Shown here: in pieces, positions 1 to 18,685 of the stretch
Position numbering within the stretch: position 1 is the stretch's first letter
Layout of the letters: each line of letters opens with the position of its first letter
Source of the DNA: an uncultured Candidatus Saccharibacteria bacterium
GTDB taxonomy: Bacteria; Patescibacteriota; Minisyncoccia; Minisyncoccales; MHMH01
Reading direction: 5' to 3'
NCBI GenBank assembly: GCA_964477885.1
Contig: CAYZHR010000001.1
Location: forward strand, 1-25,267
DNA: 25,267 nucleotides
Program-made: the position numbers and the translations under genes
The notes under the pieces: model-generated
Database searches by the model: none
What the model saw: only the letters and a program-made list of their open reading frames with translations
Told to the model about the DNA's origin: nothing

Positions 1-43
1 AAAAATTATCTATAATTTTTTCTGACTAAGACTTCTAACGGGG
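1..43. mobile_element. Right end of MITE-like element, copy A (truncated by window edge)
   Basis: 1-43 is identical to 9209-9251 and ends in the TIR AGACTTCTAACGGGG; it abuts the tsf stop codon (44-46). Confidence 0.85.
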
Positions 44-484
44 TCATATTTGGTAGCGAGCGAACTTTTTAACAATGACGTTTTCGCCTAATCTGGCTAT
101 AACTTCATCAATCAAGTCCTTAACGGTCTTCGCCTCATCTTTTATCCAGGGCTGTTCCAGCAAGAGCGCTTCCTCCTCGCCGAGAGCCGCAATCTGCAAA
201 CATAATTCATGGGCTAAGTTTTGGAAGTCCTGGTTCTTGGCGACAAAATCGGTTTCGCAACCCAGCTCCAAAATAACGCCCACTTTCTTGTTGGGATGAA
301 CATAACTGGCAATAATTCCCTGGCTGGTTGCTCTTTCAGCTTTCTTTTGAGCTAAATTTTTACCCCATTTCTTCAAAATCTCCTTGGCTTGCGCCAAATC
401 GCCCTTAGCTTCTTTTAAAGCTTTCTTGCACTCGGTAATGGAAACTTCCGTTTCTGTTCTCAGTTGTTTGATTTTGTCAATCAT
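44..484 (-). CDS. tsf: Elongation factor Ts, short form (146 aa)
   Basis: N-terminal UBA-like IKQLRTETEVSITECKKAL, ELGCETDFVAKN motif, adjacent to rpsB. Confidence 0.95.
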   Translation of the reverse strand: MIDKIKQLRTETEVSITECKKALKEAKGDLAQAKEILKKWGKNLAQKKAERATSQGIIASYVHPNKKVGVILELGCETDFVAKNQDFQNLAHELCLQIAALGEEEALLLEQPWIKDEAKTVKDLIDEVIARLGENVIVKKFARYQI

Positions 485-499
485 CGAGATTTTAATTCA

Positions 500-1207
500 T
501 CAACTCTTCGCTTTTGGTTTCTTGACGCCTTTGATCGCTTCCTGCACTTTGTCTAAAATATACTTGACCGAAGATATGGCATCGTCACTCGCTGGAACGG
601 GAAAATCCGCTAAGGTGGGATCGGCGTTGGTGTCGCAAATGCCGATTACTTTAATCCCTTTCGCTCTCGCTTCCTTCACCGCCAGCTTATCTTTAATCAT
701 ATCACAAACGAAGATGGCGTCGGGCAAGCGAGTCAGATTCTTGATGCCGCCGAACTTTCTCTCAAATTCCCTTAATTCTTCGTCAATGTCGGCTCTCTCT
801 TTCTTGGTGTATTTTTCCAATTCGCCGGCTGTTTTCTTTCTTTCCAAATCCTTAAAGTATTCTATCCTTTTGAAAATGGAACCGAAATTGGTGAAAGTTC
901 CACCCAGCCACCGCTCAACCACGTAGTAAAAACCGCCGGCTTCAGCCGCTTCCCGAACCACGTCTTTAATCTGGACCTTAGTCCCTACTAACATTAGCGT
1001 TTTGCCTTCGGCGGTAAGTTTCTGGACAAATTCCAAAGCTTCAATCAGTTTTTCTTTGGTTTTTTCCACATCAATAATATGGATAGTGTCTCTGACCCCA
1101 AAAAGAAATGGCTGCATCTTCGGATTGATTTTAGATGTTCGGTGGCCGAAATGGAGACCCTGGCGGGTCATCTCTTCGGTATCGATATTGAATTTTTCTT
1201 TAGTCAT
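500..1207 (-). CDS. rpsB: 30S ribosomal protein S2
   Basis: GLHFGHRTSKINPKM, RWLGGTFTNF and DTNADP motifs. ATG at 1207 preferred over the TTG at 1210, which lies in the element's flanking repeat. Confidence 0.97.
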   Translation of the reverse strand: MTKEKFNIDTEEMTRQGLHFGHRTSKINPKMQPFLFGVRDTIHIIDVEKTKEKLIEALEFVQKLTAEGKTLMLVGTKVQIKDVVREAAEAGGFYYVVERWLGGTFTNFGSIFKRIEYFKDLERKKTAGELEKYTKKERADIDEELREFERKFGGIKNLTRLPDAIFVCDMIKDKLAVKEARAKGIKVIGICDTNADPTLADFPVPASDDAISSVKYILDKVQEAIKGVKKPKAKS

Positions 1208-1210
1208 CAA

Positions 1211-1342
1211 CCCCGTTAGAAGTCTGTCTTATTTAGCATAATACTAATTTCAGATAGACCCTGGTTGTTTAATTTTACCCCCGTTATTAGAAAGCAGAAA
1301 AAATTTAATCTAAATTTTTTCTGACTAAGACTTCTAACGGGG
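1211..1342. mobile_element. MITE-like element, copy B (132 bp, non-autonomous)
   Basis: Perfect 15 bp TIRs CCCCGTTAGAAGTCT...AGACTTCTAACGGGG, TCAA on both flanks (1207-1210 and 1343-1346), no transposase ORF, similar to 9122-9251. Confidence 0.85.
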
Positions 1343-1351
1343 TCAAGTTCT

Positions 1352-1360
1352 AATATAACA
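1352..1360 (-). promoter_or_regulatory. Candidate extended -10 promoter for rpsB-tsf (TGtTATATT)
   Basis: Motif match only; the same motif and spacing is seen upstream of gpmA once the element is removed in silico. Confidence 0.5.
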
Positions 1361-1362
1361 TA

Positions 1363-1392
1363 TTGTCAAAAAAAAGAAAAGTATGGTAAAAT
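1363..1392 (+). promoter_or_regulatory. Candidate sigma70 promoter for pyrH (TTGTCA-18-TAAAAT, with TG extension)
   Basis: -35 at 1363-1368, -10 at 1387-1392, ATG 7 nt downstream at 1400. Confidence 0.55.
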
Positions 1393-1399
1393 GAAAGAG

Positions 1400-2077
1400 A
1401 TGATCAAGAAGCCCGAAACCATTGTTATTTCCCTGGGCGGCTCGATTATTGTGCCGGGCAAAATCCAGGTGGCATTCCTTAAAAAGTTTAGGGAATTTAT
1501 TTTGAAATTTCTCAAAAGGAACTGCCAGTTTATCATTGTGGCGGGCGGCGGGGCGGTCGCCCGGCAATATCAGGAAGCGGCTACCAAAATCACCAAAGTG
1601 TCGGACGAAGATAAAGACTGGCTGGGCATTCATGCCACCCGTTTCAACGCCCACCTGCTAAGAACCATTTTCAAAGAAGAGGCTTATCCGGTCGTACTGG
1701 ACAGCCCTCACAAAGAGATTGACGCAGAAAGGTACAATCTTTTCATTGCTTCCGGCTGGCGGCCCGGCTGGTCCACTGATTATGACGCCGTTATTCTGGC
1801 CGACCGTTTCAAAGCCGATAAAATCATCAACGCTTCCAACATAACCCATGTATATGACAGAAATAAAAAACTGCTAAACGGAATCAGCTGGAAGGACTAT
1901 CGAAAATTAATCAGCTCCGCCTGGGCTCCAGGCATGAATGTTCCTTTCGACCCCATTGCCGCCAAGGCCGCTCAAGAATTAAAGATGACCGTAATTGTCG
2001 CCAAAGGAACGAATTTGAACAACTTAGCCGACATCTTGAACGACAAACCTTTCCAAGGCACCGTCATCCATCCTTGA
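1400..2077 (+). CDS. pyrH: UMP kinase, archaeal-type
   Basis: ISLGGS, VAGGGAVAR, DWLGIHATRFNA, GWRPGWSTDYDA and PFDP motifs. The ORF track starts at 1391, but that ATG overlaps the -10 box. Confidence 0.9.
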   Translation: MIKKPETIVISLGGSIIVPGKIQVAFLKKFREFILKFLKRNCQFIIVAGGGAVARQYQEAATKITKVSDEDKDWLGIHATRFNAHLLRTIFKEEAYPVVLDSPHKEIDAERYNLFIASGWRPGWSTDYDAVILADRFKADKIINASNITHVYDRNKKLLNGISWKDYRKLISSAWAPGMNVPFDPIAAKAAQELKMTVIVAKGTNLNNLADILNDKPFQGTVIHP

Positions 2078-3447: not shown

Positions 3448-4794
3448 TCACTCAATTTCTTTTATATCTTGTTCGTATCGGGCGGCGATGGCCATGACGG
3501 AATCGCCGTAAAACTCATAACGTATCTGATTGCTCAAAGAACAGCTGCCGGAAAAATAGGAAACGGCCGCACACCACTCATAGTCGTGCGTTTTTTTAGT
3601 CGCACCGACGTCAGAAAGATAAACGGCGGCGGCCAAAAAAGCGTCGCTGATGTTCCAGGGATCGGCAGCGCTTCCCTTCAATTGGGCGATACGGTCTTTA
3701 TATATCATCCAGGTGGAGGGAATGAATTGAGCCGGACCCATGGCTCCCCCGTACCCCCCCACGCTGGGAATCGGACAGGAAACAGGCGTATTAAAGGGGT
3801 CTCTCCCCAAGGCTTGCGTTATTTGCAGAAAAGGCTGCACGTCCCGAGACGACTTCATCACTTTGGAGATGGGTGTTCCGTTCACCCTCACTCCGTTTCC
3901 GGTCGCTGCGTCTTTCAGATAACACTGCCCGACATTGCTGCCGATATTGGACTCTTGAGTTAAGACGGCCAGCAAGAAGGCCGGACGCACGCCGGTCAAT
4001 GAAGAAACCACTTTGGCGATTTCCAAAGCCTCGCCGAAAGTGGGGGCTTCCGGCACGCCAATCAATTCAAAAATCCTCTCTCTGATCGCTTGGGCTCTTT
4101 TTTCTACGCTTTCTTTCTCTTCTAATTGTTTTTGGTATTCCGCTTCAGTCATCTGCAGTAAATAATTTTGCTCTACCCGCGTCTTCTCGTTTTCTTGTTT
4201 TTGCAGAGTTTGAATAACCACCTGCCTCTCCAGACTCTCTTTCTCTTCGTCCAAAGACTGTCTCTGCGCTTCTAAATAAGATTTAAGAGTTTTAATCTGG
4301 CTTAACACCTCCTGATTCTTAGTATTCAAAGATTCCAAAGCCACTAAATTGTCGAAGAAATCGGAAACCCCTTCGGCCAGCAGGATTTCAATCAGGGGGC
4401 GTTCGTCTTCTTCGTAAACTTCTCTTAAAATAACCGCTAGCCTGTCTTTTGTTTCGTCAATCTTTAAGCTGGTTTTTTGAATCGAAGTTTGAGTGTCTTG
4501 AATCTGCAAGCCCAAATCTTTAATAATGACGTTGCTCTGGTAAATCTGCAAATCTAATTTTTTTATCGTATTTCTCAGAATATATATTTTATTTTCCAAA
4601 GATTTTTTCTCTTGCTCTGTTTTGGTAATGTTTGTTTTATATTGAGCAATTTCTTCCTCTAACTGCCTTAATTCCTCTTCCAGGGCTTGCCTTTCCTCGG
4701 TCGGACTCATCTCCGCCAAAATAAAAAAAGACGGCAACGCAAAAGCCGCCGTAATGCTGAAAAACAGAACAATTTTTAAAAATTGTTTGTTCAT
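3448..4794 (-). CDS. Exported coiled-coil protein with C-terminal lytic transglycosylase (SLT/MltB-like) domain
   Basis: Hydrophobic N-terminus, long heptad E/Q/K-rich region, then LTQES, GAMGPAQFIPSTW and ADPWN lysozyme-like motifs. Confidence 0.8.
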   Translation of the reverse strand: MNKQFLKIVLFFSITAAFALPSFFILAEMSPTEERQALEEELRQLEEEIAQYKTNITKTEQEKKSLENKIYILRNTIKKLDLQIYQSNVIIKDLGLQIQDTQTSIQKTSLKIDETKDRLAVILREVYEEDERPLIEILLAEGVSDFFDNLVALESLNTKNQEVLSQIKTLKSYLEAQRQSLDEEKESLERQVVIQTLQKQENEKTRVEQNYLLQMTEAEYQKQLEEKESVEKRAQAIRERIFELIGVPEAPTFGEALEIAKVVSSLTGVRPAFLLAVLTQESNIGSNVGQCYLKDAATGNGVRVNGTPISKVMKSSRDVQPFLQITQALGRDPFNTPVSCPIPSVGGYGGAMGPAQFIPSTWMIYKDRIAQLKGSAADPWNISDAFLAAAVYLSDVGATKKTHDYEWCAAVSYFSGSCSLSNQIRYEFYGDSVMAIAARYEQDIKEIE

Positions 4795-18085: not shown

Positions 18086-18685
18086 TTACAAATCCTCTTT
18101 TTTGTAAAGTCCGTGGTTGAATTCATATTTTATTAAGCCGGCATAAGGAACTTCAAGGTTAATAATATCTTCATCGGATATTTTTTCAATGTATTTTATT
18201 ACAGCCCTTAAAGAATTGTGGCTGGCGACAATTAAAACATTCTTTCCTTCTTTCAAGTCTTTCTCAACGTACTTCTTGAAAAATGTCACCGCTCTTTGAT
18301 AAACGTCTTTCAGGCTTTCGCCAGCAGGCGGCGCCACGTCCCAGCTTCGCCGCCACAAGCGAACTTTCTCCTCGCCGTATTGTTTTTTAACGTCGTCTTT
18401 ATTCAAACCCTGAAATTTTCCGTAATTTCTTTCGTCCAACGCCTTATCAATGACAATCGGCAAACCATCTTTACCGAGTTCTTTTAAAATTAAAGAGACC
18501 GTTTCTTTGTTTCTAATTAGGGGCGAAGTATAAACTTTATCAATCTTAAAATTGGCCAGTTTTCCGGCGGTCTCTTTGGCGCTTGCAATTCCCTCTTGGC
18601 ACAAAGGCACATCTGTCCAGCCGGTAAACCGGTTTTCCAAATTCCACTGCGATTTAAGATGCCTCAACAGAATCAACTTTGCCAT
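18086..18685 (-). CDS. gpmA: 2,3-BPG-dependent phosphoglycerate mutase
   Basis: [41 protein letters not shown]. Confidence 0.88.

What the first reader, a model, noticed from the sequence alone, without database searches (positions are those of the whole stretch)
1205..1360. MITE sits between the promoter and start codon of rpsB, turning a near-leaderless mRNA into one with a 130 nt structured leader
Seen: removing copy B and one TCAA gives TGtTATATT-agaacttg-ATG, the same motif and 8 nt spacing as upstream of gpmA (TGgTATATT-aagagaac-ATG). With the element, the essential rpsB-tsf transcript would gain a long TIR-closed hairpin ending 3 nt before the ATG, a 7-codon uORF (1239-1216) and a GGGG tract 3 nt upstream of the start. 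Established: in many bacteria rpsB is autoregulated through a structured leader. Inference: the element may be tolerated, co-opted or processed out.
Basis: partly seen in the sequence, partly recalled or inferred. Interest (0 to 1): 0.7.

Follow-up and report, generated by a model that had tools for sequence, protein, structure and literature searches.

The report
Mobile hairpin element before rpsB
A 132-base mobile DNA element landed exactly between the promoter and the start codon of the essential ribosomal protein S2 gene in an ultra-small groundwater bacterium; it belongs to a large, apparently undescribed family that habitually parks on gene start codons.

Summary
Window 1211-1342 is a 132-bp element with perfect 14-bp inverted ends (CCCCGTTAGAAGTC) and a 4-bp target duplication, TTGA on the gene strand. 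The last A of that duplication is the A of the rpsB ATG.

Three relatives (71-77% identical S2) lack the element. They carry the same extended -10 box (TGnTAnAyT) exactly 8 nt before the ATG, so the ancestral mRNA was leaderless or nearly so. The insertion is identical in eight independent assemblies.

The element is one of a Patescibacteria-wide family. About 72% of roughly 100 sampled copies sit on a start codon with the same end facing the gene, mostly inside operons. Coding relatives of about 282 bp share the same ends and carry only a 91-96-aa GIY-YIG nuclease gene, read from the host's own ATG.

Whether the element lies in the rpsB mRNA could not be shown, because no usable RNA data exist. 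Co-transcription from the intact old promoter, as a leader of about 137 nt, is the best-supported reading. An internal promoter and RNase III trimming remain open. Nothing supports co-option for S2 autoregulation.

The parts
500..1207 (-). rpsB coding sequence (235 aa, Ribosomal_S2); ATG at 1207-1205
   Evidence: PF00318; 71-77% identity to relatives over 95-100% of its length
1207..1210 (-). gene-side copy of the 4-bp target-site duplication (TTGA on the gene strand); its A is the A of the rpsB ATG
1211..1342 (-). 132-bp non-coding TIR element (copy B). Its gene-front 'L' end (ACAGACTTCTAACGGGG on the gene strand) faces rpsB
   Evidence: absent at the same site in relatives L010, L119, L121
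1211..1224 (.). gene-side terminal inverted repeat (GACTTCTAACGGGG on the gene strand)
   Evidence: (invariant in 77 copies)
1329..1342 (.). promoter-side terminal inverted repeat (CCCCGTTAGAAGTC on the gene strand)
1343..1346 (-). promoter-side copy of the target-site duplication (TTGA); the predicted native transcription start is G1344 or A1343
   Evidence: inference from -10 spacing
1352..1360 (-). extended -10 promoter box TGTTATATT of rpsB, 8 nt from the ancestral ATG
   Evidence: conserved as TGnTAnAyT + 8 nt + ATG in three relatives; same architecture at pyrH and the gpmA-like gene
1295..1323 (.). internal hairpin hp1 (CAGAAAAAATT / AATTTTTTCTG)
   Evidence: 10 of 12 pairs show double (compensatory) changes across the family
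1278..1286 (.). internal third copy of the terminal motif (TAACGGGGG on the gene strand). It can pair with the promoter-side TIR to give an alternative two-hairpin fold
1222..1260 (-). gene-side 'L-half' module: outer stem GTCTATCT/AGACAGAC, inner hairpin hp3 (TTAGTA/TGCTAA) and an A/T-rich box (TAAATAAG)
   Evidence: hp3: 5 of 5 pairs covary; kept alone in front of genes in L038 and L090
1216..1239 (-). 7-codon uORF MLNKTDF* that ends at the TAA inside the TIR, 8 nt before the rpsB ATG
   Evidence: not conserved in the family
1..43 (-). end of copy A, cut by the window edge. It abuts the tsf stop codon (44-46). The complete copy A, with a second element nested inside, is seen in L001 at 4165-4434
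   Evidence: the empty site ATATGA (tsf stop overlapping the next gene's ATG) is seen in L119
9122..9251 (-). copy C (130 bp, TSD TAAA on the gene strand). It lies inside the first codons of the PEP-synthase-like gene
1384..1402 (+). divergent pyrH promoter TGGTAAAAT + 7 nt + ATG (1400), the same leaderless-type architecture

Best explanation
Copy B (1211-1342) is a selfish, non-coding member of a Patescibacteria-wide family of small TIR elements. The family has a 14-bp TIR and a 4-bp TSD of loose TNNA type. Its coding members carry only a ~93-aa GIY-YIG nuclease gene. Copy B inserted into TTGA at -3..+1 of the rpsB start codon, one base downstream of where the old extended -10 promoter starts transcription. 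The duplication left the ATG intact, and the insertion became fixed.

Most likely the old promoter still fires and transcribes straight into the element. The rpsB-tsf mRNA would then carry a ~137-nt leader whose two ends form a ~20-bp stem closing just before the AUG. S2 would still be made from the same AUG. The element would be tolerated, not recruited.

Shown: identity, position, empty site, promoter conservation, fixation, family behaviour and the coding partner. Inferred: that the element lies in the translated mRNA, and how the ribosome copes with the stem.
For: Identity and position:
- TIR, TSD and three copies in the window.
- Element-free orthologous sites in three relatives, with TGnTAnAyT + 8 nt + ATG conserved.
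- The 211 nt across the site are identical in eight assemblies, and both junctions are confirmed in Logan contigs.

Family behaviour:
- More than 107 loci in many CPR classes carry the element.
- 72 of about 100 complete copies are parked on a start codon with the L end toward the gene.
- 51 of those 72 have a same-strand upstream gene ending within a few nt. These copies are operon-internal and have no obvious way to be expressed other than co-transcription.
- At least 6 other copies sit directly behind an intact TGnTAnnnT box, 6-8 nt from the orphaned start codon.

No barrier and no clear internal promoter:
- No terminator-like site on either strand in 1000-1500, and no sigma-70-like promoter inside the element.
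- The family's A/T box is mostly TATATAA(A/G), without T at -7. Its upstream TG lies in a covarying hairpin arm and is not conserved.
- For copy C, the only in-frame ATG for the PEP-synthase-like gene lies 32 nt inside the element, upstream of that box. At least there, the element must be transcribed from further upstream.

Coding partner:
- Coding copies are read from the host ATG, so they are co-transcribed by design.

Folding:
- With the full leader the AUG itself stays 0.71 unpaired, although -12..-1 is paired.
Against: - There is no RNA evidence. No RNA run holds the window. The one aquifer metatranscriptome that holds a relative has depth of about 2 and no contig over any element.
- This organism rarely uses Shine-Dalgarno sites. 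A 20-bp stem abutting the AUG of an essential, highly expressed gene looks unfavourable for initiation.
- Unlike typical copies, copy B leaves no start codon on the promoter side. No upstream translation could open the stem.
- The L-half module is conserved, is kept even when the other half is lost, and holds TATTAT and TAAATA hexamers in copy B. An internal start site cannot be excluded.
Confidence: 0.6

Rival explanations
1. The gene-side half of the element carries its own outward promoter (the A/T-rich box 17-19 nt from the end; in copy B, TATTAT at 1243-1238 or TAAATA at 1235-1230). The working rpsB mRNA would then start inside the element with a leader of about 12-26 nt and would lack the long hairpin.
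For: - Strong orientation bias: about 72 copies face genes with the L end, against about 5 in reverse.
- The box is conserved, and some copies read TGnTATATA or TATAAT.
- L halves are kept alone in front of genes in L038 and L090.
- Correia and other MITEs are known to supply promoters (review PMC10969869).
Against: - Most copies lack T at -7, whereas all four orthologous rpsB promoters keep A-11 and T-7.
- The TG is not conserved, because it lies in the covarying arm of hp3.
- The generic scan finds no promoter in the element.
- In copy C the usable ATG lies upstream of the box.
- Short-leader RNAs fold with the AUG paired, only 0.08 unpaired.
- The orientation bias has another possible cause: a hairpin followed by a U-rich tail on the antisense strand, with at least 7 U of 12 in 38 of 77 copies.
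Confidence: 0.2
2. The element is co-transcribed and the long TIR stem is then cut by RNase III, as shown for Correia/NEMIS elements in Neisseria. This would leave a short, unstructured leader on rpsB.
For: - An uninterrupted stem of about 20 bp is formed by the TIRs plus TSD pairs.
- RNase III cleavage at the TIRs of Correia-containing mRNAs is a published precedent (review PMC10969869).
Against: - Nothing could be tested here.
- A cut 3' arm alone is predicted to pair with the coding region.
Confidence: 0.15
3. The element has been recruited as a structured leader through which protein S2 feeds back on rpsB-tsf translation.
For: Only the general fact that rpsB is autoregulated through a leader in some bacteria (my own knowledge), together with the presence of a stable structure at the AUG.
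Against: - The same element sits on dozens of unrelated genes.
- Three relatives have no leader at all.
- There is no Rfam match.
- No feature specific to copy B stands out in the family alignment.
Confidence: 0.04

Closest known systems
Correia / NEMIS elements of Neisseria (MITEs co-transcribed with neighbouring genes)
   Same: - Size of about 100-150 bp, with TIRs that fold into a long hairpin in the mRNA.
- Often sit just upstream of genes, including between a promoter and the gene (mtrCDE).
- Can be cut by RNase III and can supply promoters (PMC10969869).
   Different: - Correia duplicates TA, has 26-bp TIRs and an IHF site, and has no known coding partner.
- This family duplicates 4 bp and has unrelated 14-bp TIRs.
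- It parks on the start codon itself, in one orientation.
- It shares its ends with GIY-YIG-coding copies.
Chunjie MITE of Geobacter uraniireducens (inserted in an operon without disturbing it)
   Same: A TIR/TSD element tolerated inside a transcription unit (PMC10969869).
   Different: Chunjie shows no start-codon precision, no rebuilt start or stop codons, and no GIY-YIG partner, and it is reported from one species only.
Rickettsia palindromic elements (RPE)
   Same: Small palindromic elements tolerated inside genes. Some copies of this family are likewise read through in frame (L058, L063, L086; copy C).
   Different: RPEs sit within coding regions as in-frame inserts. Here most copies carry stops (64 of 68) and lie at the gene boundary.
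Ssn single-domain GIY-YIG ssDNA nucleases with their SRM/NTS hairpin repeats (Chenal et al. 2025, PMC11893778)
   Same: - A small single-domain GIY-YIG protein gene flanked on both sides by a hairpin-forming repeat.
- That repeat is also scattered in many copies around genes (Pfam GIY-YIG E = 1e-15).
   Different: - The SRM/dRS3 motif is absent here.
- The repeats here are the two ends of one element with a TSD, and the gene fills the element and borrows the host ATG.
- Membership in cd10448 and ssDNA cleavage were not tested.
- Ssn repeats are not reported to sit on start codons.
Introner elements of algae and fungi (DNA transposons whose TSD helps rebuild a splice site)
   Same: The same logic: a transposon stays harmless inside a gene because its own end plus the target duplication rebuilds the signal it interrupts. 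This comparison rests on my own knowledge.
   Different: Introners are eukaryotic, rebuild splice sites rather than start or stop codons, and are removed from the RNA by splicing.

Membership tests
Bacterial MITE (non-autonomous TIR element) | terminal inverted repeats | tested here: met
   14 of 14 bp perfect, at 1211-1224 and 1329-1342; invariant in 77 copies
Bacterial MITE (non-autonomous TIR element) | target-site duplication, and an empty site in relatives | tested here: met
   TTGA on both sides. Three relatives have the uninterrupted site. Family TSDs: TGAA 42, TATG 10, TGGA 5, and others
Bacterial MITE (non-autonomous TIR element) | many dispersed copies and no coding capacity | tested here: met
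   3 copies plus 1 nested copy in or next to the window. More than 107 loci in genome contigs. The end motif has a depth of about 13,000 in the source metagenomes against about 8 for the flanks. The reading frame entering from the host start codon is stopped inside the element in 64 of 68 copies
Bacterial MITE (non-autonomous TIR element) | a longer coding element with the same ends that could mobilise it | tested here: inconclusive
   Elements of about 282 bp with identical TIR cores carry a 91-96-aa GIY-YIG gene. They share nothing but the TIRs with copy B. That this nuclease moves either form is untested
IS-derived MITE of a DDE transposase family (e.g. IS5 or IS1380, which give 4-bp TSDs) | a DDE transposase gene between the same TIRs | tested here: not met
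   None was found among 179 fetched loci. The only coding partner found is GIY-YIG. The resemblance of end and TSD length to IS1380 is from memory only
Correia/NEMIS | TA duplication and the Correia TIR sequence | tested here: not met
   4-bp TSD and an unrelated TIR
Correia/NEMIS | RNase III cleavage of the TIR stem in mRNA | not testable with these tools
   no RNA data
rpsB (S2) autoregulatory leader | a conserved structured leader upstream of rpsB in related genomes, or a match to a described leader family | tested here: not met
   Relatives have an 8-nt spacer between the -10 box and the ATG. There is no Rfam match at gathering score, and only chance-level hits at E <= 1
Ssn nuclease / SRM repeat system | single-domain GIY-YIG protein | tested here: met
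   PF01541, E = 1e-15 to 2e-14, for three coding copies. The nearest solved structures are UPF0213 (1zg2) and SLX1
Ssn nuclease / SRM repeat system | SRM/NTS motif (ATTCCC-N8-GGGAAT core) | tested here: not met
   1 match with 2 mismatches in the window, against 1.76 expected by chance
Ssn nuclease / SRM repeat system | site-specific cleavage of single-stranded DNA next to the repeat | not testable with these tools
   needs purified protein

The most novel reading that the evidence does not exclude
The element is more than a tolerated hitch-hiker. The family would be a start-codon-seeking class of transposon moved by a ~90-aa GIY-YIG nuclease. Its gene-less copies would have evolved a conserved, covarying gene-front module (the L half) that keeps the interrupted host gene expressed. 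That module could work by holding the start codon open, by letting ribosomes pass or restart across the closed stem, or by supplying a start site. At rpsB it would have replaced leaderless initiation on an essential gene.
Probability: 0.25. Interest if true: 0.85.

Novelty: new variant of a known kind. Interest (0 to 1): 0.6.

Why it matters
- **A natural experiment in translation initiation.** An essential, highly expressed gene that was transcribed without a leader, in an organism that hardly uses Shine-Dalgarno sites, now sits behind a 132-nt hairpin, yet the insertion is fixed. Finding out how S2 is still made would show how initiation works in these uncultured bacteria.
- **An undescribed kind of mobile element.** The family parks on start codons, rebuilds them from its own last base plus the duplication, and has coding copies that borrow the host's ATG for a tiny nuclease. 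I found no paper describing it. It also matters for annotation: the rebuilt GTG starts and the true gene boundaries are easy to miscall.

Tried and rejected
- **Own genome.** There is therefore no copy count in the organism's own genome, no search for rnc, and no check for a second rpsB.
- **RNA evidence.**
  - No RNA run holds the window or the element.
  - One aquifer metatranscriptome (X24) holds a related MAG at a depth of about 2, with no contig over the elements of L058, L045 or L030.
  - Nothing in X24 is at least 80% like copy B.
- **One reading frame from the orphaned host ATG across the element.** I asked whether such a frame stays open and couples to the rebuilt start. Rejected for the gene-less copies: 64 of 68 stop inside.
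- **A conserved short uORF ending at the TAA in the TIR.** Only 19 of 77 copies have one, against 7 in each control frame. It is not a family feature.
- **Strand test for an RNA structure.**
  - Only the promoter-side half is more stable in the sense strand (p = 1e-5).
  - G-U versus A-C counts are mixed: hp1 24 vs 29, hp3 33 vs 23, L outer stem 41 vs 87.
  - The test is inconclusive. The covariation could also come from DNA-level processes in palindromes.
- **A longer autonomous element with a DDE transposase.** None was found in the fetched loci.
- **Composite-transposon idea** (rpsB-tsf bracketed by copies A and B). The synteny pyrH | rpsB-tsf-116-aa gene is the same in element-free relatives, so the operon has not moved.
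- **Rfam.** No family matches.
- **Ssn-type SRM motif.** Absent.
- **Empty-site allele in the population.** None was seen among the joints listed at about 5-10x depth. Sensitivity is low.

Full report
**What is there**

rpsB lies on the minus strand (1207..500), followed by tsf (484..44). pyrH diverges on the plus strand. Between the rpsB ATG (1207-1205) and pyrH lie 183-192 nt, depending on which pyrH ATG is used. Of these, 132 nt (1211-1342) are an element with perfect 14-bp inverted ends. On the gene strand these read CCCCGTTAGAAGTC ... GACTTCTAACGGGG.

The element is flanked by a direct 4-bp repeat, TTGA on the gene strand, at 1343-1346 and 1207-1210. The A of the gene-side repeat is the A of the ATG, so the start codon survived the insertion.

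The window holds two more copies. Copy C is at 9122-9251. The end of copy A is at 1-43. The 12-nt TIR core occurs five times exactly. With up to 2 mismatches it occurs eight times, against 1.85 expected by chance. As RNA, the gene strand folds at -49.5 kcal/mol (z = -5.9).

**The empty site and the promoter**

I fetched the rpsB regions of three relatives whose S2 proteins are 71-77% identical. L119 and L121 keep the gene order pyrH | rpsB-tsf-116-aa gene; in L010 two other genes lie between pyrH and rpsB. None of the three has the element.

Aligned with the window minus the element and one TTGA, all four read AATATG(G/T)TAnA(C/T)T, then 8 nt ending in TTG, then ATG. TG, the A at -11 and the T at -7 are invariant, while the middle of the hexamer varies. 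That is the pattern expected of a working extended -10 box.

The window shows the same architecture in two other places: at pyrH (TGGTAAAAT, 7 nt, ATG at 1400) and at the gpmA-like phosphatase gene (TGGTATATT, 8 nt, ATG at 18685). Only about 2-3 of the 26 gene starts in the window have a Shine-Dalgarno-like sequence.

The ancestral rpsB mRNA therefore began at or 1 nt before its AUG.

**The insertion is real and fixed**

The 211 nt across the site are identical in eight assemblies from different samples and pipelines (ENA, JGI, NCBI). Contigs from four further runs confirm both junctions. No empty allele was seen, although the organism's depth is only about 5-10x.

**The family**

Nearly all hits are Patescibacteria of many classes.

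- About 100 copies have both ends. Most are 124-136 bp, with a shorter form of about 100 bp.
- The duplications are TGAA (42), TATG (10), TGGA (5), TTGA, TAAA, TGAG, TTCA and others. This is roughly TNNA.
- 72 copies have a start codon with an open frame of at least 60 codons at the junction, always next to the same (L) end.
- The usual form is ...ATGAA | element | TGAA.... The last G of the element plus the duplicated TG rebuilds a GTG in the old frame. With TATG the ATG itself is duplicated.
- In 51 of the 72 the upstream gene is on the same strand and ends within a few bases. In 13 cases its TGA lies inside the ATGA overlap. Most copies therefore split two coupled genes of an operon and leave both the stop and the start intact.
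- About five copies sit on start codons in the reverse orientation (L086 twice, L063, L088, L099). Two of them (L063 and one L086 copy) are read through in frame.
- At least six other copies lie directly behind an intact TGnTAnnnT box, as at rpsB.

Copy B is unusual in one respect. Its duplication covers -3..+1, so no start codon is left on the promoter side.

**The coding partner**

I followed a lead from earlier notes of this scan. I scanned the metagenome collection for the same two TIR cores placed 240-270 nt apart and found 72 loci.

- About 21 carry an open frame of 91-96 codons. It starts at the flanking host ATG (ATGAA|CCCC gives MNPVRSQ...), fills the element, and stops at the TAA inside the far TIR or 7 nt earlier.
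- Three of these proteins match Pfam GIY-YIG at E = 1e-15 to 2e-14.
- The nearest solved structures are UPF0213 and SLX1.
- Some coding copies come from the same JGI sample series as the window's own assemblies.
- Copy B shares only the 14-bp ends with them.

Whether this nuclease moves anything is untested.

**Inside the element**

A 77-copy alignment shows four internal features:

- a strongly covarying hairpin hp1 (10 of 12 pairs with changes on both sides);
- a third, internal copy of the terminal motif (AATAACGGGG), which can pair with the promoter-side end;
- an A-rich linker;
- an 'L half' made of an outer stem (GTCTGTCT/AGACAGAC), a covarying inner hairpin hp3 (5 of 5 pairs) and a conserved A/T box.

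For hp1, the outer stem and hp3 together, 79.7% of cells pair, against at most 52% when the partners are slid by 1-3 columns. None of 500 shuffles reaches the observed covariation score.

The element can therefore fold in two ways: as one long TIR-closed hairpin, or as two local hairpins that leave the gene-side end free. L halves survive alone in front of genes in L038 and L090. Tests for which strand carries the structure were inconclusive.

**How rpsB is expressed now**

I could not get RNA evidence, so this part is inference. I favour co-transcription from the old promoter for these reasons:

- The promoter is intact and lies one base from the element.
- Neither strand has a terminator-like site.
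- Most family members are inside operons.
- Coding copies are translated from the host ATG.
- In copy C the only in-frame ATG lies 32 nt inside the element, upstream of the A/T box.

An internal promoter is less likely. The box usually lacks T at -7, and its upstream TG is part of a covarying hairpin arm. Copy B does hold TATTAT and TAAATA hexamers, however.

The orientation bias could reflect such a promoter. It could equally reflect the hairpin with a U-rich tail that the element presents on the antisense strand, which is moderate (38 of 77 copies).

Folding predictions cut both ways:

| Transcript | -12..-1 unpaired | AUG unpaired |
|---|---|---|
| Full ~137-nt leader | 0.07 | 0.71 |
| Short leaders from an internal start | about 0.35 | 0.08 |

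RNase III trimming of the ~20-bp stem, as in Neisseria, would solve the access problem, but it could not be tested.

**S2 feedback**

Nothing supports co-option for autoregulation. The relatives have no leader. The same element fronts unrelated genes in many lineages. Rfam gives no match.

**Comparison and novelty**

In behaviour, copy B resembles a Correia element sitting between a promoter and a gene. It fails membership on the TSD and the TIR. The family's start-codon precision, its rebuilt codons and its GIY-YIG partner have no description in the papers I could search. The nearest published relative of the protein side is the Ssn nuclease/SRM repeat system, whose motif is absent here. Earlier agents of this scan have noted the family repeatedly. 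My start-codon statistics were obtained before I read those notes, and I re-tested the GIY-YIG claim here.

**Limits**

- The family sample was drawn with an end-specific 17-mer, so that end is invariant by construction.
- All statements about transcription and translation are inferences.

Noticed in passing
window 9118-9262: Copy C sits inside the first codons of the PEP-synthase-like gene, 7-10 nt after the original ATG (9262-9260; originally MPIKSKKFILWF...). The gene now has its first in-frame ATG at 9152, inside the element, giving MSYIKQTSNGV-KSKKFILWF.... The upstream pilin-like gene keeps its TAA through the duplication.
   Followed up: partly
window 1-48; L001 4160-4440: Copy A split the ATGA overlap between the tsf stop and the start of a conserved 116-aa gene. 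A second element is nested inside it. Relatives L119-L121 have the intact 4-nt overlap.
   Followed up: partly
L141, L144, L162, L164, L171, L172, L176, L179, L188 and others (file L122): Elements of about 282 bp with the same TIRs carry a 91-96-aa GIY-YIG nuclease gene. It starts at the host gene's own ATG and stops in or just before the far TIR. This is a possible mobilising enzyme and a very small coding mobile element.
   Followed up: partly
L058 7343-7473(-); L063, L086 (reverse orientation): Some copies of 131 bp plus the 4-bp TSD (135 nt) are open in frame from the orphaned ATG into the host gene. This adds a 45-aa N-terminal extension (MNPVRS...KTSNGV).
   Followed up: no
L038 ~3605-3660; L090 ~370-420: Solo gene-side halves (outer stem, inner hairpin, A/T box and TIR) remain directly in front of genes, without the promoter-side half.
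   Followed up: no
L032, L076, L079, L090: The start codon of the same gene carries an element in four different genomes. The gene begins MNLNKV and is probably ssb, named from its N-terminus only. This is either recurrent insertion or an old shared one.
   Followed up: no
window 1384-1402: pyrH probably starts at the ATG at 1400, not 1391. This gives TGGTAAAAT + 7 nt + ATG, a leaderless-type start.
   Followed up: partly
window 13288-13320, 13843-13875, 14044-14076: Three copies of a different palindromic repeat (CCGACGAGAA...TTCTCGTCGG followed by T-rich sequence) flank the gene at 13325-14041. They may be terminators or a second repeat family.
   Followed up: no
window 1305-1358 in runs X1-X4: The promoter-side end of the element has a summed contig depth of about 13,000, against about 8 for the organism's flanks and about 1,700 for the gene-side end. 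This end is therefore shared by a very large number of elements in the aquifer community.
   Followed up: no
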